From Candidatus Saccharimonadota bacterium (GTDB taxonomy: Bacteria; Patescibacteriota; Saccharimonadia; UBA4664): a stretch of 64,000 nucleotides of DNA. Below, in pieces: positions 5,890-45,538 of this stretch. The DNA is taken from assembly GCA_019352195.1 (NCBI GenBank), contig JACAFG010000002.1:167820-231819 (forward strand), given 5' to 3'. Position 1 is the first letter of the stretch, and every line of letters starts with the position of its first letter. The notes under the pieces were generated by a model. It did not search any database and was not told the DNA's origin. It was given only the letters and a program-made list of their open reading frames with translations. The translations under genes were made by a program, and so were the position numbers.

Positions 5890-6266
5890 GGGGCTGATCA
5901 GCTTCGACGTTGGGATCTTTACCAGGTTAAAGCGCAGGTCGACTGGCCGCCGTAAGCGGGCAACAAGTTGTTAAATGACAACTTAATTTCGCGGGTCAAG
6001 GCTGCCTTCACGGCTCCTTCATTCGCTCCTGTTTACGCCTAATAACGTAGACTATCGGCACCTGACTCCTGATGGGGATCCGCCGGTATCAAATCATCAG
6101 GACGCTCTAGACGGCTTGTCTCAGCCGACTAGCTAAGATTTGAGACTGCTTCACTCGTCAGTTTGTCTGGCATGATGATGGGTGACTAAGATCAAAACCA
6201 GACTATATCTGTAGTGCTTGACCAGTAACCTAACGGACCCGAGTGCAATTCTCGGCAGCTCCACCA
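5890..6266 (+). ncRNA. ssrA: tmRNA (SsrA), 377 nt
   Basis: 5' GGGGCUGAUCAGCUUCGACGUUGGG matches the tmRNA 5' consensus (E. coli GGGGCUGAUUCUGGAUUCGACGGG). 3' end GGACCCGAGUGCAAUUCUCGGCAGCUCCACCA is a tRNA-like T-arm plus a 7-bp acceptor stem with G3-U70 (alanine identity) and encoded CCA. An internal open frame ends in tandem UAA-UAA (6040-6045); the tag-like frame reads ...AAFTAPSFAPVYA**. smpB is present at 28.5 kb. Confidence 0.9.
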
Positions 6267-16639: not shown

Positions 16640-17710
16640 ATGACGAAGCTAGATCCGAGCGAGGATTCATTACTGGGGCCAAATGCCGTGGCCGAAATCG
16701 TGTCAATTGACGACCAGGCAGTTAAAGAACCGTCTCGTAAACCAAAACGAGGGCGGTTTGGCCTGATTCTTAAGGTCGTAATCTGGTTACTGCTGCTGAC
16801 TATAGCTGCTTACGTCGTAATTATTGTTCATAACGTTGCAAAAATCTCAACACAACCTATGTCGCTGAGCGGTTTATCCGGTGATAGTAATGGCCGTGTG
16901 AATATTCTGATCCTCGGTGAAGGGGACGCAGGGCACGCCGGCGCTGGCTTGACCGATACCATTATGGTGATGAGTTTTGATCCTAAAACAAGGCAGATAG
17001 CGCAAATTAGTGTACCGCGAGACCTGCGAGTAAATATTCCCGGGTATGGCTACAGCAAGATTAACGCCGCTAACGCATACGGTGGGGTTCAGCTGGCAGA
17101 GCAAACCGTGAGTAATACGCTTGGAATTCCCATTAACTATTATATTTTGACTAACTTTTCAGGTCTTAAGTCGATTGTTGATGCGGTTGGAGGACTTGAT
17201 ATTAATGTTAAGACCGCTCTCATTGACCCGGATTATCCGTGTGACGACAACCAATATAAGGCGTGCGGACTCAATATTGCGCCTGGTCCGCAGCATATGA
17301 ATGGTTCGCAGGTGCTTGATTACACGCGCTGCCGCAAAGGTACATGTGGCAATGACTTTGGTCGAGCGGCGCGCCAGCAAGAGGTTTTGGGGTTACTGCG
17401 CCAAAAGGTACTACGTTGGCAGACCTTGGCGAATCCAGTTCAAGTAAAAGCACTGACTGAAGCAATGCGGACGAGCCTTACGACCAACCTGGGGGCAGTG
17501 CAAATGGCACAACTGGGCTGGTACTGGCATCGGGCGCAAATTCATCCGACGATTCAGTTGGTATTATCAACCTCACCGGGTGGCTACCTAACGTCAGCCT
17601 CAGGATCGAGCGACTTATTACCGGCTGACGGCAGCTTTGCTGCGATTCAAAGTCGAGTTATCAATATATTTACGGTGCCCACAGCTTCAACGGACGTTCC
17701 TAAGACATAA
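16640..17710 (+). CDS. LCP (LytR-CpsA-Psr) family cell-wall glycopolymer ligase
   Basis: N-terminal TM anchor then LCP core (LTDTIMVMSF ... ISVPRDLRVNIPGYGYSKINAA). Confidence 0.8.
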   Translation: MTKLDPSEDSLLGPNAVAEIVSIDDQAVKEPSRKPKRGRFGLILKVVIWLLLLTIAAYVVIIVHNVAKISTQPMSLSGLSGDSNGRVNILILGEGDAGHAGAGLTDTIMVMSFDPKTRQIAQISVPRDLRVNIPGYGYSKINAANAYGGVQLAEQTVSNTLGIPINYYILTNFSGLKSIVDAVGGLDINVKTALIDPDYPCDDNQYKACGLNIAPGPQHMNGSQVLDYTRCRKGTCGNDFGRAARQQEVLGLLRQKVLRWQTLANPVQVKALTEAMRTSLTTNLGAVQMAQLGWYWHRAQIHPTIQLVLSTSPGGYLTSASGSSDLLPADGSFAAIQSRVINIFTVPTASTDVPKT

Positions 17711-36380: not shown

Positions 36381-36456
36381 CGGGGTGTGGCGCAGTTGGT
36401 AGCGTGCTGTGTTCGGAACGCAGAGGTCGCAGGTTCAAGTCCTGTCACCCCGACCA
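36381..36456 (+). tRNA. tRNA-Pro (anticodon CGG)
   Basis: Hand-folded cloverleaf: acceptor CGGGGTG/CACCCCG, D-arm GCGC-AGTTGGTA-GCGT, anticodon stem CTGTG/CGCAG with loop TTCGGAA (U33, CGG, A37), T-arm GCAGG-TTCAAGT-CCTGT, discriminator A, encoded CCA. Confidence 0.85.
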
Positions 36457-39579: not shown

Positions 39580-40041
39580 GTGCAGGTAAGGAATACGAGT
39601 TCTCAGTTCGAGAAATCGCTACTCAACAAAATCGCTCGGGTCGCAAACAGGCTCGAAGCTGAGGTGGAAAACGAGTTAAAGGTCAGCTTCGCGCTGACCT
39701 TTTCTCAATTCAGGGTGCTCGACGCCTTGCTCGGCCGCGATGAATTGAGCCAGCGAGAACTAGCCGAAGTCATTGGAGTGACTCCGGCTGTAGTAACGCG
39801 TCAAGCCGAAGTACTGGCGGGACGGGGACTGCTAGAACAGCGGGAAAACCCGCGCAGCCGTCGCGAAAAGCTCATTGTTGCCACGCGCAAAGGGGAACAA
39901 GCGGCCGTTGATGCCGGTAAGGCAATTATGAATGCGCAAAAACGGCTGTTTGAGCCGCTAGATGTACAAGAAGAGTTGGCGATAGAGCGTGGCCTATCAA
40001 AAATGCCGCCGGTGCCAACGAATTGGCACCGGCGCTTCTAG
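39580..40041 (+). CDS. MarR-family winged-helix transcriptional regulator
   Basis: LTFSQFRVLDALLGRDELSQRELAEVIGVTPAVVTRQAEVLAGRGLL (wHTH). Its stop overlaps the RT stop (tail-to-tail). Confidence 0.7.
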   Translation: MQVRNTSSQFEKSLLNKIARVANRLEAEVENELKVSFALTFSQFRVLDALLGRDELSQRELAEVIGVTPAVVTRQAEVLAGRGLLEQRENPRSRREKLIVATRKGEQAAVDAGKAIMNAQKRLFEPLDVQEELAIERGLSKMPPVPTNWHRRF

Positions 40042-40976
40042 GATCGAATGAGCCAGTCATTGCGATGCAACTGGTAGTCATGGAACAACTCCAGGGTGTG
40101 ACACTCGGCTCGGTTACGGCCCTGATGACTTCGTGGCGTGGCCGTCCAGTATACTCCCATGTAGCCAGCAACTTTGGCCGGTTTGATCATGCCGTACCTG
40201 GCTAAGTGCAAAATGCCATTGACCTTACCGAGATACTTACGCGGGACATAGGTACGGCCGGTGAGGTCGAGCCCAATGCCGTTGATCTGGACCGGTCCCT
40301 TCGCGAGGTCGTAAACTTTGGCCTTGCGATAGCTGATGTCAAACCCTGCCGCTGCGATGACGTCTCTGATGGCACGTCGTTTGCGCTCACCAATGGGTTC
40401 GTTACTTGAGAAGGTGAGGTCGTCAATGTAGCGGCTGTATGTCAGCCCCCAGCGCTTGAGTCGGGGGGCTAAGCGTTGATCGATGAGCTCGCCGGCATAG
40501 ATGTTAAACAGATCCGGCGAGGCGGGCGCTCCGGTGAGTAGGCCGCCCGTTGTGCCCAAACAATAGCGCTTGAGAAAATCATGTGTGCTCGACAGCTCGG
40601 ACGGGTCGGCAACAAGATAGCCGTCACGTTGCGCTGCCAGCGTACACAGGATGAACGCCAGTTCGCCACCCTTTACATACAAATACGCGCTGTGAAGGTC
40701 CAGCAGGTACAAGTAGCGCTTGCCGCGATGACGCTCGACATTGCGTCGTGGCGACGAGCCAGGTAAAACCGCGGTGGCGTAGGGTGAGCGGCCATGGACT
40801 TTAGTTTGCAGGAGCCGTAGATCAACGATCATGCGGCTATGAAGCTTGCGCATGGGGTCGTTGGGCGCGTGAATGGTGCGCCACTTGGTAACCCCGCTTA
40901 CCTTATTTTCATCGCGTAATCGATGAACGCGAAAGCTTGGCTCATCTCCAAGGAGGTCTGATAGGTTGTCAAACAA
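40038..40976 (-). CDS. retron-type reverse transcriptase (312 aa)
   Basis: RT motifs 1-2 (KWRTIHAPNDPMRKLHSRMI), A (YLYLLDLHSAY), B' (LLTGAPASPDLFNIY), C (YSRYIDDLTFSS, retron-like RYxDDLTFS), and D with a VTG-like INGIGL. TTG start with GAGGAG RBS. It lacks group II intron maturase/X domains and the DGR (I/V)GxxxSQ motif. Confidence 0.7.
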   Translation of the reverse strand: MFDNLSDLLGDEPSFRVHRLRDENKVSGVTKWRTIHAPNDPMRKLHSRMIVDLRLLQTKVHGRSPYATAVLPGSSPRRNVERHRGKRYLYLLDLHSAYLYVKGGELAFILCTLAAQRDGYLVADPSELSSTHDFLKRYCLGTTGGLLTGAPASPDLFNIYAGELIDQRLAPRLKRWGLTYSRYIDDLTFSSNEPIGERKRRAIRDVIAAAGFDISYRKAKVYDLAKGPVQINGIGLDLTGRTYVPRKYLGKVNGILHLARYGMIKPAKVAGYMGVYWTATPRSHQGRNRAECHTLELFHDYQLHRNDWLIRS

Positions 40977-41006
40977 CGGAGGTGCTCCTCACTGAGAGTC
41001 GGGGGT

Positions 41007-41382
41007 GTGGTCTGGGGCCACAGTTTGGTACTGCCTAACCACGAAGGACAATCCTGTCCGAGAGATAGCCGCGCCAGATGAAGGATCCTGCCGTCGGCCG
41101 CCCGCAAACGTAGAGCGCACGAAATCGAGTCGGGGACAAATGGGACTTGCGCCAGCAACGGCACTCCTCGCATGTGATCCAGACACTGTACCCGTGGCGG
41201 TACGCCGAGATGCAGCACGGATGGACTGTCAGATGGGAGAGAAGTCAACGCTGGATGTGAAAAAAAACGAACGCTAACATCCCTGAAACTCGCCCGAGGG
41301 CCAGCCCCTCCTCATCGCATGAACGACGAGGTTGTATTGCTTTGTCGAACTCCAAACTGCTGCTAGCGCGGCCCCAGACCAC
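41007..41382 (-). ncRNA. candidate retron msr-msd ncRNA bounded by a1/a2 inverted repeats
   Basis: GTGGTCTGGGGCC (minus-strand reading, 41382-41370) and its perfect reverse complement (41019-41007) form a 13-bp stem, extendable to ~17-19 bp with G-U pairs and one mismatch. The element is ~375 nt, has no ORF, and lies between a strong promoter and the RT RBS. It contains several local hairpins (e.g. CCTCGTCG-ttcatg-CGATGAGG) and a U8 tract. Confidence 0.45.
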
Positions 41383-41419
41383 TCCACGAACGACCAGCTG
41401 GACCGTCGTGGATGACATG

Positions 41420-41447
41420 ATAATACCCGCTTGCACCAGATAAGCAA
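41420..41447 (-). promoter_or_regulatory. sigma70-like promoter TTGCTT-N16-TATTAT driving the ncRNA-RT transcript
   Basis: -35 at 41447-41442, -10 at 41425-41420 (minus-strand reading). Predicted TSS ~41413, 30 nt upstream of a1. Confidence 0.5.
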
Positions 41448-41460
41448 ACCATTTTAGGTC

Positions 41461-41489
41461 TTGTTCGGCTTTGATTCGGTTGGTATACT
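41461..41489 (+). promoter_or_regulatory. divergent promoter TTGTTC-N17-TATACT for rmuC; the mRNA is probably leaderless
   Basis: -10 ends 6 nt before the ATG at 41496, with no RBS. It lies back-to-back with the retron-like promoter. Confidence 0.4.
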
Positions 41490-41495
41490 CCTTGC

Positions 41496-44197: not shown

Positions 44198-44216
44198 GTC
44201 GATCACCCAAGATAAA

Positions 44217-44250
44217 AAGAAAACAGCGATTTCGATCGCTGTTTTCTTTT
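44217..44250 (+). terminator. intrinsic terminator of trpS
   Basis: GAAAACAGCGAT-ttcg-ATCGCTGTTTTC followed by a T-run. Confidence 0.85.
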
Positions 44251-44454
44251 TACAACAAACCAAACATTGTAATTTCACTGAATTAGTTTTTTACAGGTTT
44301 ATTTAGCCTCAAATCTGATAAGTATTTTACGGCTATGTATTGTAATATTAACAACATTAGCCACTGAAAAGTATGCTAAAAATTGATAATAATTAGCGAA
44401 TTATGCCTATACAGAGGTATTTGTAGCGTAGCAGTGATTGAAGCTTAAGACTGT

Positions 44455-44482
44455 TGACTTTTGAAAATGGTTGTGCTAAGTT
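44455..44482 (+). promoter_or_regulatory. candidate promoter TTGACT-N16-TAAGTT for the ORF-free transcript
   Basis: -35 at 44455-44460, -10 at 44477-44482. AT-rich upstream; alternative promoters are possible. Confidence 0.3.
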
Positions 44483-44488
44483 TGTTTC

Positions 44489-45092
44489 AGACCGAAGTTC
44501 GCAGACCACATAGCCCGCGATCACCGACCAACCGTTCAGACCAAGTCCGCCGCTCAAAGATCACCGACCACGACCAAAGGTTCCTTAAAATGTTAAAAAC
44601 TCTCGTTCAAACTCATCTAGAGTTACGTCCGGATGGTAGGGGTAGTCCCGGTTAGAAATATCCCCCTTATTTCTAACCCGGGCTCTCCCCACCATCAAAC
44701 CAACTAAGCTCAATCTAGTGTCCAAACCTAGATGACGCACTGGCTTAGGACCAGACCAAGACCCGACCAATGACCAACGTAACATGACAACAAACATCAC
44801 TGTTACAGGTAGCTGGAAGGCATGCGGTAATAACATACGTTGTTGCCGACTGCCTTCCAGCTACACCATGACCCGGGAGGAAAAACTTAGCTCAAACTAG
44901 TACATGAACATAGACTAGAAGTAGCTAGCACCACAACTATTTCTTACTGATATCCAAAACTATTGGTAGGAAGTACTACGGGGCGACAGGCGCCAATTTA
45001 CCAATAAATATGGGTGCTTCTTGTTCGCCCCGTAACTCGAATTTATTCCAAAGCATCAATGATTGTCGTGAGACGAGCATTGATGCTTTTTT
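44489..45092 (+). ncRNA. candidate large structured ncRNA (~600 nt, unknown family)
   Basis: No ORF with protein-like composition in any frame. Features: a 12-nt direct repeat GATCACCGACCA (44519 and 44559) and many GACCA(A) motifs; an extended imperfect hairpin at 44632-44696 with a 13-bp apical stem; a perfect 14-bp-stem hairpin at 44809-44864; a 10/11 stem at 44979-45033; and a strong terminator at the end. Confidence 0.4.
45051..45092 (+). terminator. intrinsic terminator ending the ORF-free transcript
   Basis: AGCATCAATG ... CATTGATGCT (10 bp) with an inner TCGT-gag-ACGA, then TTTTTT. Confidence 0.8.
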
Positions 45093-45163
45093 CGATTGCC
45101 TCTACCTGTGGCGGGAAGGGGTGTAAGGTGCAATAATAGAGCCAATATAAGCGTGAGTGGAAT

Positions 45164-45538
45164 GTGCCGGCCAGGGGACAGCTAACAATACTAGCTTTGT
45201 GGAGCGCTGCGGGTGGGGCTGTGGTACTTATAACCATGCTTGCAACCAATCCGGCGGCCATTGGTCCCGTAGGGGTGACCGTCTGGTTTGTGTTGTTATT
45301 GAGCGTGTTTGCCAGTGTATTAACGCTCGCTATGTATGCTGTTAAGGCGTATTTTCACCTGCATGCGACGCGTCAGCAACGTCTGCGTTACTCGTTACGG
45401 CAGGGTTTACTGGTGGCAGGATGGGTGTCGGGCTTGTTGGCCTTGGCTTCACTCGGCCAATTGGGCGTGCGCGATGTTATACTACTAGGACTAGCCGCCG
45501 TTATTGTTGAGTTATATGTGAGGTTTCGCTGGCCATGA
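45164..45538 (+). CDS. small membrane protein (3 TM)
   Basis: 124-aa ORF. Its stop overlaps the pheS ATG (ATGA). Confidence 0.45.
   Translation: MPARGQLTILALWSAAGGAVVLITMLATNPAAIGPVGVTVWFVLLLSVFASVLTLAMYAVKAYFHLHATRQQRLRYSLRQGLLVAGWVSGLLALASLGQLGVRDVILLGLAAVIVELYVRFRWP

What the first reader, a model, noticed from the sequence alone, without database searches (positions are those of the whole stretch)
44217..45095. About 0.9 kb ORF-free, highly structured, terminator-bounded region between trpS and pheS: candidate large ncRNA
In a compact genome with short intergenic spacers, this ~900-bp stretch has no credible ORF. The only six-frame hits are 64-83-aa low-complexity ORFs. The region contains a 12-nt perfect direct repeat (GATCACCGACCA x2), two clusters of GACCA(A) motifs, a ~65-nt extended hairpin (44632-44696), a perfect 14-bp stem with 28-nt loop (44809-44864), and another 10/11 stem (44979-45033). 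It ends in a strong intrinsic terminator on the + strand (45051-45092), so a + strand transcript is implied. I could not recognise RNase P, SRP or 6S signatures. Size and ornate structure recall large ncRNA classes such as ROOL, GOLLD, OLE or raiA-like RNAs, but none could be confirmed. The GACCA arrays could also be protein-binding sites.
Basis: seen in the sequence. Interest (0 to 1): 0.7.

Follow-up and report, generated by a model that had tools for sequence, protein, structure and literature searches.

The report
New structured RNA gene in Saccharibacteria
The gene-free stretch after trpS holds a separately transcribed, roughly 600-base folded non-coding RNA. It is conserved in all 13 related Saccharibacteria genomes examined and matches no catalogued RNA family, so it is a new orphan RNA whose function is still unknown.

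Summary
Window 44489-45092 (+) is a stand-alone gene for a ~604-nt structured non-coding RNA in a Saccharimonadia (CPR) genome.

- **Transcription signals:** it has its own conserved promoter (TTGACT, 17 nt, TGc-TAAGTT) and its own intrinsic terminator. trpS upstream has a separate terminator. The 124-aa ORF and pheST downstream have a separate promoter.
- **Conservation:** one copy is present in all 13 relatives sampled (trpS 74-86% identical).
- **Structure:** it folds as a string of hairpins. 60 tested pairs are 96% paired, 24 show compensatory double changes, and 0 of 500 shuffles reach this.
- **Selection:** helices stay 69-80% identical while trpS third codon positions are saturated at 42%.
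- **Exclusions:** there is no conserved ORF under genetic codes 11, 4 or 25. No Rfam 15 family matches, including OLE, ROOL, GOLLD, raiA, T-box, RNase P, SRP and 6S. Nothing similar occurs in the phage, plasmid or E. coli collections.
- **GACCA arrays:** these are lineage-variable expansions (0-26 copies) of a single-stranded 5' AG(U/A)(U/C)C repeat tract. They are not part of the conserved core.

Function is inferred only. The most likely role is a trans-acting protein-binding scaffold or regulator.

The parts
44213..44252 (.). trpS terminator. A perfect 18-bp hairpin flanked by an A-run and a T-run, forming the left boundary. It is not part of the RNA.
   Evidence: I3. Every relative also has a hairpin plus T-run directly after trpS (sequences).
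44332..44363 (+). Diverged copy of a conserved upstream element (TTTGTGCATAAAyGTTGT-N8-10-ACAACA in relatives). It may be a regulator-binding site. Function unknown.
   Evidence: Alignment of the 230 nt upstream of the promoter in 12 loci.
44404..44419 (+). Small hairpin preceded by a T-run, conserved with base-pair changes in relatives. It lies upstream of the promoter. Function unknown.
   Evidence: read by eye and not formally tested.
44454..44482 (+). Promoter: -35 TTGACT (44454-44459), 17-nt spacer, extended -10 TGc-TAAGTT (TG 44474-44475, hexamer 44477-44482).
   Evidence: TTGAC and TTGTGCTA(A/C/G)(G/A)TT are invariant or nearly so in the 12 loci aligned for this region. L184 shows the same motifs in its sequence. 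Promoter function is inferred and was not measured.
44489..45092 (+). The ncRNA transcript, ~604 nt here and 428-645 nt in the 12 relatives measured. The 5' end is predicted at the invariant A, 7 nt after the -10 hexamer. The 3' end is in the terminator U-tract.
   Evidence: Both ends are inferred from signals, not mapped.
44489..44631 (+). 5' single-stranded, C/A-rich tract of AG(U/A)(U/C)C repeats. It holds GACCA cluster 1 and the 12-nt repeat GATCACCGACCA x2 (44519-44530, 44559-44570).
   Evidence: Motif density is 6.0 per 100 nt against 0.31 in the rest of the RNA. AGUUC is present in all 12 measured. Tract length is 36-196 nt and GACCA copies number 0-26.
44632..44696 (+). H1, a 25-bp interrupted hairpin. 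Its apical loop UAUCCCCCUUA (44659-44669) is identical in 11 of 12 aligned homologues and altered only in L177.
   Evidence: helix 1: 95% paired, 8 pairs with double changes. CM R1 scores 88.6 bits on + and 48.8 on -.
44704..44748 (+). P2, a two-tier hairpin. The outer stem is CUAAGC/GCUUAG, the inner stem AUCUAG/CUAGAU, the loop is of GGUCCAAAC type, and there is a 3' internal loop of GACGCG type. It is absent in L179.
   Evidence: 12 of 12 pairs show double changes and 93% are paired. That alignment was made by hand. The inner stem was also tested independently, helix 2.
44749..44790 (+). GACCA cluster 2, an insertion found only in the window's RNA.
   Evidence: Alignments. TRF reports an 11-nt period.
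44809..44864 (+). H2 hairpin: outer stem, a 2x2 internal loop with a conserved G/A, then an inner stem.
   Evidence: helix 3: 97% paired, 8 pairs with double changes.
44865..44886 (+). Short P4 region and a conserved purine-rich strand (GGGAGGAA). In most relatives P4 is a GC hairpin with a tetraloop.
   Evidence: Duplex scans repeatedly find it as the partner of the H1 loop, but there is no covariation.
44887..44928 (+). P5, a variable hairpin. In the window it is a sequence paralogue of P2 (31-nt direct repeat D1).
   Evidence: D1. A hairpin is predicted at this position in every homologue by single-sequence folding. Not formally tested for covariation.
44938..44975 (+). P6 hairpin (UAUUUCUUACUGAUA / UAUUGGUAGGAAGUA). 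In some relatives it carries a long insertion in the loop.
   Evidence: The base of the helix changes on both sides between lineages (UUUCUUAC/GUAGGAAG against AUCUUUAC/GUAAAGAU), read by eye.
44977..45034 (+). H3 hairpin, with a nearly invariant GC-rich base (ACGGGGCGAC / UUCGCCCCGU) and a conserved CAAUU loop motif.
   Evidence: helices 4-5: 97-99% paired, 2 pairs with double changes. Also.
45035..45049 (+). Conserved A/U-rich linker between H3 and the terminator (ACUC-UGCAAUUAUUU type).
   Evidence: 78% mean pairwise identity.
45050..45092 (+). Intrinsic terminator: hairpin with a GUGA loop, followed by U6.
   Evidence: I4. All 12 homologues folded have a stable hairpin plus U-run here with unrelated stem sequences. 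L184 also shows a hairpin-forming sequence followed by a T-run.
45129..45137 (+). Extended -10 (TGc-AATAAT) of the next transcription unit, the 124-aa ORF and pheST. Not part of the RNA.
   Evidence: A conserved TGn-(C/T/A)ATAAT lies downstream of the terminator in relatives. Inferred.

Best explanation
Window 44489-45092 (+) is a stand-alone gene for a ~0.6-kb structured non-coding RNA. It founds a family that is in neither Rfam 15 nor the papers searched.

The RNA is transcribed from its own sigma-70-type promoter and ends at its own intrinsic terminator. It folds as a string of hairpins behind a single-stranded 5' repeat tract, in the order H1, P2, H2, P4, P5, P6, H3, terminator.

The most likely mode of action is in trans, as a protein-binding scaffold or regulatory RNA. 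The probable docking sites are its sequence-invariant surfaces:
- the 11-nt C-rich apical loop and upper stem of H1;
- the P2 loop;
- the H2 internal loop;
- the GC-rich base and CAAUU loop of H3;
- the A/U-rich linker before the terminator.

The 5' AG(U/A)(U/C)C / GACCA repeat tract is an expansion-prone accessory. At most it offers a multivalent single-strand binding platform.

Shown: the gene's boundaries by conserved signals, conservation, strand, secondary structure with covariation, absence of coding capacity, and independence from its neighbours. Inferred: that it is expressed, that it acts in trans, and that its partners are proteins. My probabilities are about 0.93 that it is a real ncRNA gene, and about 0.5 that the protein-scaffold reading is correct given that. 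The confidence of 0.55 given for this explanation covers the whole statement, mechanism included.
For: - **Synteny:** a 770-1140-nt ORF-free gap follows trpS or precedes pheS in relatives.
- **Copy number:** the RNA is found once in each of 13 distinct lineages.
- **Transcription signals:** the promoter and the +1 A are conserved in the 12 loci aligned for this region. The 12 homologues folded have a terminator with unrelated stem sequences.
- **Covariation:** 96.3% of 712 cells are paired, 24 of 60 pairs show double changes, 0 of 500 shuffles reach this, and slid controls give 32-46% paired. In P2, 12 of 12 pairs show double changes.
- **Strand:** many G-U pairs occur, and the + strand scores about 40 bits above the - strand.
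- **Fold stability:** z = -8.1.
- **Selection:** mean pairwise identity is 80% for H1 (89% for loop plus upper stem), 69% for H2 and 74% for H3, against 42% for trpS third codon positions.
- **Sequence constraint beyond pairing:** several helical segments never vary while neighbouring pairs covary freely. This fits recognition by a partner.
- **Independence from neighbours:** genes are inserted between trpS and the RNA in L174 and L083, and between the RNA and pheS in L183.
Against: - No transcript data were available, so expression, ends and abundance are inferred.
- Only 13 lineages from one clade were sampled, and all shuffle tests are inflated by shared ancestry.
- No partner protein is identified.
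- The architecture is a string of hairpins without proven junctions or pseudoknots. That is equally typical of base-pairing regulators such as RNAIII.
- The -10 hexamer matches TATAAT at only 3 of 6 positions.
- P2 is missing in L179, so not every element is essential.
Confidence: 0.55

Rival explanations
1. It is a base-pairing riboregulator of the RNAIII/RsaE type. The conserved C-rich loop (UCCCCCU) on the stable H1 hairpin would pair with G-rich sequences in target mRNAs, and the other hairpins would give stability.
For: The 11-nt C-rich apical loop is identical in 11 of 12 aligned homologues. The architecture is a string of hairpins with A-rich linkers. The 3' end has a hairpin, an A/U linker and a terminator.
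Against: No complementary site of 7 nt or more lies at a ribosome-binding site in the 64-kb window. Many genes here appear leaderless and Shine-Dalgarno use is modest. CCCCC mismatches the GGAGG core. The extensive sequence invariance inside helices is not needed by a seed-type regulator.
Confidence: 0.2
2. It is an OLE-like membrane-tethered ribonucleoprotein. The RNA would be bound by the small four-helix membrane protein encoded just downstream (45164-45538) through that protein's Arg-rich loop.
For: A 124-aa ORF with four hydrophobic segments and the loop KAYFHLHATRQQRLRYSLRQ follows the RNA directly in most relatives. The protein has no known family and is lineage-restricted like the RNA. 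OLE RNA (577 nt in C. acetobutylicum) binds the membrane protein OapA (PMC12286853). That oapA lies next to ole is my own recollection.
Against: In L183 two genes separate the RNA from the ORF. The ORF is translationally coupled to pheS by an ATGA overlap and has its own promoter after the RNA's terminator. The Rfam OLE model does not match. No binding evidence exists.
Confidence: 0.1
3. It is a cis-acting leader that controls read-through into the 124-aa ORF and pheST, acting as a T-box-like or attenuator-type sensor.
For: It lies upstream of pheST and is co-oriented with it. A terminator sits between the RNA and the operon.
Against: No T-box or other leader family matches at E<=10. Terminator stems are not conserved in sequence, so no conserved antiterminator can form. 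A separate conserved extended -10 follows the terminator. In L183 two genes, one on the opposite strand, lie between the RNA and pheS.
Confidence: 0.04
4. It is a DNA-level element. The GACCA repeats would act as iterons or protein-binding arrays, for example of a replication origin or an operator, and there would be no functional RNA.
For: GACCA is about 11-fold enriched locally. L163 has a perfect array with an 11-bp period. AT-rich DNA lies upstream.
Against: The arrays are absent in 7 of the 12 homologues counted. Compensatory base-pair changes and G-U pairs show selection on one RNA strand. No GC-skew switch occurs here.
Confidence: 0.02
5. It is a missed or decayed protein-coding gene, possibly read with an alternative genetic code.
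For: Stop-free stretches of 55-106 aa exist in single sequences.
Against: The longest frames differ in strand, frame and position between homologues under codes 11, 4 and 25. Peptide similarity is confined to about 20-39 aa over the conserved hairpins. Indels are not in multiples of three. Substitutions are compensatory in helices.
Confidence: 0.01

Closest known systems
OLE RNA (Rfam RF01071) with its membrane partner OapA
   Same: Similar size: OLE is 577 nt in C. acetobutylicum (PMC12286853). It is also an orphan, lineage-restricted, highly structured RNA. A gene for a small multi-pass membrane protein lies next to it. The adjacency of ole and oapA is from my own knowledge.
   Different: There is no sequence or structure match to the OLE model. 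The host phylum differs (Saccharimonadia/CPR). The architecture is a simpler string of hairpins. The membrane ORF here is coupled to pheS and is separated from the RNA in one relative. No binding has been shown.
ROOL and GOLLD large ornate RNAs
   Same: They are several-hundred-nucleotide bacterial ncRNAs of unknown function. They combine conserved helices with a variable, unconserved linker region (PMC12286853).
   Different: No match to either Rfam model. This RNA is not phage- or tRNA-associated. It is chromosomal, at a fixed syntenic site, and has no phage or plasmid relatives. No multi-stem junctions or conserved kissing loops have been shown.
Staphylococcus aureus RNAIII and C-rich-loop sRNAs such as RsaE (from my own knowledge)
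   Same: About 0.5 kb, a series of hairpins, and a conserved C-rich apical loop that could pair with G-rich mRNA sites.
   Different: There is one C-rich loop rather than several. No targets were found in the window. It encodes no peptide. Helices are conserved in sequence well beyond what pairing requires.
Protein-titrating RNAs with repeated single-stranded motifs: CsrB/RsmZ (GGA), CrcZ (CA motifs), and TRAP or HutP sites (spaced NAG triplets). From my own knowledge.
   Same: The 5' tract carries many copies of a short motif, AG(U/A)(U/C)C, at 5-8-nt spacing in an unstructured region.
   Different: The motif differs from all of these. Copy number ranges from 1 to 25 and the arrays are dispensable. 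The conserved part of the RNA is the structured core, not the repeats. No cognate protein is known.
T-box leaders of aminoacyl-tRNA synthetase genes (RF00230)
   Same: It lies upstream of an aaRS operon and ends in a terminator.
   Different: There is no model match, no conserved T-box or antiterminator sequence, and the RNA has its own promoter and behaves as an independent unit. In L183 it is separated from pheS.
Type III toxin-antitoxin RNA antitoxins (ToxI-like; from my own knowledge)
   Same: The order promoter, repeat-containing RNA, terminator, downstream ORF is the same.
   Different: The repeats are 5-11 nt and hypervariable, not 34-36-nt processed units. The downstream ORF is a membrane protein coupled to pheS, not an endoribonuclease. 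PADLOC was not run on the downstream ORF.

Membership tests
OLE / ROOL / GOLLD / raiA / HEARO (large bacterial ncRNA families in Rfam) | A match to the family's covariance model (sequence plus consensus secondary structure). | tested here: not met
   cmscan of the whole window at gathering thresholds. cmscan of the region and of two shorter homologues at E<=10 with permissive filters. None of these families appears.
OLE ribonucleoprotein | RNA bound by an adjacent membrane protein (OapA) and localised to the membrane. | not testable with these tools
   A 4-TM ORF is adjacent, but it has no Pfam or NCBIfam family. Binding and localisation need experiments.
T-box riboswitch | Stem I with a specifier loop, the conserved T-box sequence forming an antiterminator that competes with the terminator, and cis control of the downstream aaRS gene. 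| tested here: not met
   No RF00230 match at E<=10. Terminator stems are unrelated in sequence between homologues. In L183 the RNA is uncoupled from pheS.
Housekeeping RNAs (RNase P RNA, SRP RNA, 6S RNA, tmRNA, rRNA, tRNA) | A match to the Rfam model or ARAGORN, with universally conserved motifs. | tested here: not met
   tmRNA and a tRNA were detected elsewhere in the window (5890-6266 and 36381-36453), so the scan works on this genome.
Independent structured ncRNA gene (generic kind) | Its own promoter and terminator, conserved in relatives. | tested here: met
   by sequence signals only.
Independent structured ncRNA gene (generic kind) | Secondary structure supported by compensatory substitutions, on one strand. 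| tested here: met
   24 of 60 pairs with double changes, 0 of 500 shuffles, slid controls 32-46% paired. for P2. for strand asymmetry.
Independent structured ncRNA gene (generic kind) | No conserved reading frame. | tested here: met
Independent structured ncRNA gene (generic kind) | A detectable transcript with defined ends. | not testable with these tools
   No expression data were available.
Protein-sponge RNAs (CsrB/RsmZ type) | Multiple conserved copies of the cognate protein's binding motif (for example GGA in hairpin loops), with a cognate protein present. | tested here: not met
   The repeats are AG(U/A)(U/C)C / GACCA, not GGA. Copy number falls to 1-3 in several lineages. No cognate protein is known.
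Type III TA antitoxin RNA | Tandem units of about 34-36 nt processed by an adjacent toxin endoribonuclease. | tested here: not met
   TRF finds only 11-nt units. The downstream ORF is a 4-TM protein with no toxin family hit.
Retron msr-msd or DGR template RNA | It lies next to its reverse transcriptase. For a DGR, a template/variable repeat pair is also required. | tested here: not met
   The only RT (40038-40976, - strand) is 3.5 kb away. Relatives that keep the RNA lack it. No part of the region is repeated elsewhere in the window.

The most novel reading that the evidence does not exclude
The RNA is the core of a new CPR-specific ribonucleoprotein or RNA assembly. It would either be tethered to the membrane by the adjacent lineage-specific 4-TM protein, as OLE is by OapA, or assemble with itself. 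Its hypervariable 5' repeat tract would tune how many copies of a single-strand-binding partner it can hold. That would make it the first functional large ncRNA described in Saccharibacteria.
Probability: 0.12. Interest if true: 0.8.

Novelty: new member of a known kind. Interest (0 to 1): 0.62.

Why it matters
Saccharibacteria and other CPR bacteria have about 1-Mb genomes with very little non-coding DNA. As of 2022, the best-studied strain TM7x had no validated small RNAs (bioRxiv 10.1101/2022.03.25.485537).

A 0.45-0.65-kb RNA gene kept under purifying selection as strong as the first codon positions of an essential synthetase implies an important function that is currently unknown. It adds a family to the short list of large orphan bacterial ncRNAs.

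It is also tractable for follow-up. The element is well defined, has 13 homologues, and has clear invariant surfaces. That suits structure determination, partner identification, and a full-length covariance model for annotating CPR genomes.

Tried and rejected
- **Known RNA families.** Rfam was run at gathering and at E<=10 on the window and on two shorter homologues. Only chance terminator-like and miRNA-like hits appeared. ARAGORN found nothing.
- **Link to the nearby reverse transcriptase (retron or DGR).** Rejected. Relatives that keep the RNA lack the RT, and the window holds no repeat partner.
- **Hidden gene or alternative code.** Rejected.
- **Mobile element.** No blastn match in the phage, plasmid or E. 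coli collections. An exact H1-loop pattern is absent from viral contigs.
- **Extra copies or distant homologues.** The H1 covariance model finds one copy in the window and none in 80 trpS loci from other lineages.
- **Scans with trpS as query.** Only L083 was useful. Relatives had to be fetched one by one through exact-protein look-ups.
- **Pseudoknot between the H1 loop and the purine-rich strand after H2.** It is a recurrent best partner in duplex scans. Energies are modest, there is no covariation, and the paired G-run of H3 competes, so it is left open.
- **A 5'-3' closing helix.** GAGUUAC/GUAACUC pairs in the window only and is not conserved (read from the sequences).
- **mRNA targets of the C-rich loop.** None found at ribosome-binding sites within the window.
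- **By-eye resemblances.** H1 to RNase P CR-I, to the 23S L11-binding site, and to the 16S 3' tail. No model supports them and they are not claimed.
- **Literature.** Searches for a described Saccharibacteria or CPR ncRNA of this kind found none.
- **Strain-level variants.** They are identical, so they carry no population signal.
Full report
**Observation.**
- The trpS stop (44197) and the next credible ORF (45164) are 966 nt apart, with only 40-83-aa ORFs in between.
- The 12-nt repeat GATCACCGACCA occurs twice.
- GACCA occurs 9 times on the + strand in 44400-45100, against 73 in the whole 64-kb window. About 0.8 would be expected, and its complement does not occur there at all.
- The hairpins at 44632-44696, 44809-44864 and 44977-45034 are as described, as is a hairpin plus T6 at 45050-45092.
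- A perfect 18-bp hairpin with flanking A- and T-runs at 44213-44252 ends trpS.
- The stretch 44400-45095 folds far better than shuffles, with z = -8.1.
- The simple terminator scan listed neither terminator, probably because its stem and T-run definitions do not fit hairpins whose stems include part of the T-run.

**Source and context.** pheS of the window is encoded on JABBYD010000041.1 of assembly GCA_017884045.1. The closest trpS proteins come from Candidatus Saccharimonadia / Patescibacteria. The local gene order is MarR, (RT), RmuC, a 195-aa membrane ORF, trpS, the gap, a 124-aa membrane ORF, pheS, pheT.

**Conservation in relatives.** I fetched the loci of trpS proteins 74-86% identical to the window's.
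- Every locus has an ORF-free gap of about 770-1140 nt at the same place.
- The gaps align. Conserved blocks alternate with highly variable ones.
- Thirteen distinct lineages carry the element, once each.
- Gene insertions show it is a unit of its own. In L174 and L083 extra DNA lies between trpS and the element. In L183 two genes, one on the other strand, lie between the element and the 124-aa ORF and pheS.

**Transcription signals.**
- In the 12 loci aligned for this region, TTGAC(A/T), 17 nt, and cTTGTGC-TA(A/C/G)(G/A)TT precede the conserved region. In the window these are -35 at 44454-44459, TG at 44474-44475 and -10 at 44477-44482. L184 shows the same motifs in its sequence.
- An invariant A lies 7 nt after the hexamer, at window 44489.
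- All 12 homologues folded end in a strong hairpin plus U-run whose stem sequences are unrelated between lineages. This is the expected pattern for a functional intrinsic terminator.
- trpS has its own terminator in every relative.
- A conserved TGn-NATAAT lies after the RNA's terminator, in front of the 124-aa ORF.
- The predicted transcript is therefore 44489-45092, about 604 nt. It is 428-645 nt in the 12 relatives measured. These are inferences from sequence, because no expression data could be consulted.

**Structure.**
- RNAalifold on 12 sequences predicted H1, the inner stem of P2, H2 and H3, with 29 of 70 pairs showing compensatory changes.
- I counted 60 pairs on that alignment. 96.3% of 712 cells are standard pairs, and 24 pairs have changes on both sides (66 cells). 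None of 500 column shuffles reaches any of the five measures. Sliding the 3' partners by 1-3 columns drops pairing to 32-46%.
- A hand alignment of the two-tier hairpin P2 gives 12 of 12 pairs with double changes and 93% pairing. That alignment was fitted by me to the structure.
- Single-sequence folds show a hairpin at each of the P4, P5 and P6 positions in essentially every homologue. P6 changes on both sides between lineages, by eye.
- The strand is +. G-U pairs are frequent, and a covariance model of H1 scores 82-90 bits on + against 34-49 on -.
- I found no conserved closing helix or junction. The architecture is a 5' single strand followed by a string of hairpins joined by A-rich linkers.
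- L179 lacks P2 entirely.

**What it is not.**
- *Not coding.* The longest stop-free frames differ in strand, frame and position between homologues under codes 11, 4 and 25. Peptide similarity is limited to the ~20-39 aa that overlie conserved hairpins.
- *Not a known RNA.* No Rfam 15 family matches the window or two shorter homologues, even at E<=10. ARAGORN finds nothing. The same scan did find the tmRNA and a tRNA elsewhere in the window.
- *Not mobile.* There is no match in the phage, plasmid or E. coli collections or in viral contigs. The window holds no second copy.
- *Not tied to the reverse transcriptase at 40038-40976.* Relatives lack that gene but keep the RNA.

**The GACCA arrays.** They belong to a C/A-rich, G-poor single-stranded tract between the predicted 5' end and H1.
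- Its common denominator is AG(U/A)(U/C)C. AGUUC is present in all 12 homologues measured, and the first copy starts at or near +1.
- Motif density is 6.0 per 100 nt in the tract, against 0.31 in the rest of the RNA. Copies are mostly 5-8 nt apart.
- The tract is 36-50 nt long with 1-3 copies in L165, L171, L174, L179 and L183.
- In the window, L162, L163, L176 and L182 it has expanded. L163 carries a perfect 11-nt x 11.8 array, AGACCAGACCA.
- The window alone has a second expansion, between P2 and H2 (44749-44790).
- The arrays are therefore recent, slippage-type expansions and are dispensable for the core. Whether the basic AGUUC repeats bind something is open.

**Selection.** Mean pairwise identity is 42% at trpS third codon positions, which is near saturation. 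It is 80% over H1 (89% for its loop and upper stem), 69% over H2, 74% over H3 and 78% over the 3' linker. These values are comparable to trpS first codon positions at 80%. Several helical segments never vary although adjacent pairs covary freely: GGUAGG/CCUAC, CCGGUUAGA/UCUAACC, and ACGGGGCGAC/UUCGCCCCGU. The sequence of these helices is constrained, not only their pairing.

**Mechanism.** The gene-level conclusion is well supported: an independent, conserved, structured ncRNA on the + strand, at about 0.93. What it does is inferred.
- *Preferred reading, about 0.5 given that it is an RNA gene.* It is a trans-acting protein-binding scaffold or regulatory RNA. The sequence-invariant loops and helices suggest recognition by partners. 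The RNA is uncoupled from its neighbours in some genomes. No riboswitch-like or ribozyme-like junctions are evident.
- *Rival: base-pairing regulator through the C-rich H1 loop, about 0.2.* The architecture resembles RNAIII, but no targets were seen in the window and many genes appear leaderless.
- *Rival: OLE-like membrane RNP with the adjacent 4-TM protein, about 0.1.* The adjacency and the protein's Arg-rich loop are suggestive. However, L183 separates the two genes, and the protein is coupled to pheS (OLE facts from PMC12286853).
- *Rival: cis leader of pheST, about 0.04.*
- *Rival: DNA-level repeats, about 0.02.*
- *Rival: coding gene, about 0.01.*

**Comparison and novelty.** In size and orphan status it resembles OLE, ROOL and GOLLD. 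In architecture it resembles RNAIII-type multi-hairpin RNAs. In its 5' tract it resembles motif-repeat sponge RNAs. It fails the membership test for every catalogued family. Literature searches found no described Saccharibacteria or CPR ncRNA of this kind. A TM7x transcriptome paper states that no small RNAs had been validated there. I therefore class it as a new family within a known kind, orphan structured bacterial ncRNAs.

**Limits.**
- All 13 lineages come from one clade.
- Relatedness inflates the shuffle controls, although the slid controls and the number of pair types argue against an artefact.
- There are no expression data.
- The collection scans could not be repeated to reach more distant genomes.

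Noticed in passing
window 40038-41495 (- strand): A 312-aa reverse transcriptase with only an RVT_1 domain gives weak hits to many retron-type RT models. It sits between MarR and RmuC. Relatives L162, L163 and L176 lack it at that place, so it is a recent insertion. Its 519-nt GC-rich upstream region folds moderately better than shuffles (z = -2.5). No template/variable-type repeat partner was found in the window.
   Followed up: partly
window 44332-44363 and 44404-44419; the same region in L162-L183: Two further conserved elements lie in the AT-rich DNA upstream of the RNA's promoter. One is TTTGTGCATAAAyGTTGT-N8-10-ACAACA, which has diverged in the window. The other is a small hairpin, preceded by a T-run, whose stem changes on both sides. 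The word TTGTGC also recurs in the -10 region. This could be a regulator site or an upstream start.
   Followed up: partly
window 45164-45538 (+): A 124-aa ORF has four hydrophobic segments and an Arg-rich loop. Its stop overlaps the pheS start (ATGA). It has no Pfam or NCBIfam family and only 19 detectable homologues, all in this lineage. Another record annotates it as 100 aa.
   Followed up: partly
window, starts at 16640, 36841 and 49092 (+): TATAAT lies directly in front of the ATG of several genes. This suggests leaderless mRNAs are common in this genome, and Shine-Dalgarno-like words are only modestly enriched.
   Followed up: no
L163 5287-5416: A perfect 11-nt x 11.8 tandem array, AGACCAGACCA, lies inside the RNA's 5' tract. 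It is 100% matching, so it is a very recent expansion.
   Followed up: yes
L174 4990-6285; L183 5400-6412; L083 1311-2800: The two borders of the RNA gene are insertion sites in relatives. L174 has an Orn/DAP/Arg decarboxylase gene. L183 has an Ada_Zn_binding gene plus a 198-aa ORF. L083 has about 1.5 kb of other DNA.
   Followed up: partly
L176, L177, L182 (pheT): The PheT proteins of three relatives are 910-957 aa and carry an NLPC_P60 domain hit inside the synthetase beta subunit. The window's PheT is 772 aa and lacks it.
   Followed up: no
window 5890-6266 and 36381-36453: These are the only Rfam gathering-level hits in the 64-kb window: a tmRNA at 89.8 bits and one tRNA.
   Followed up: no
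L179 4826-4829: This lineage lacks the P2 hairpin entirely and has a remodelled H2 interior with compensatory changes. P2 is therefore dispensable.
   Followed up: partly
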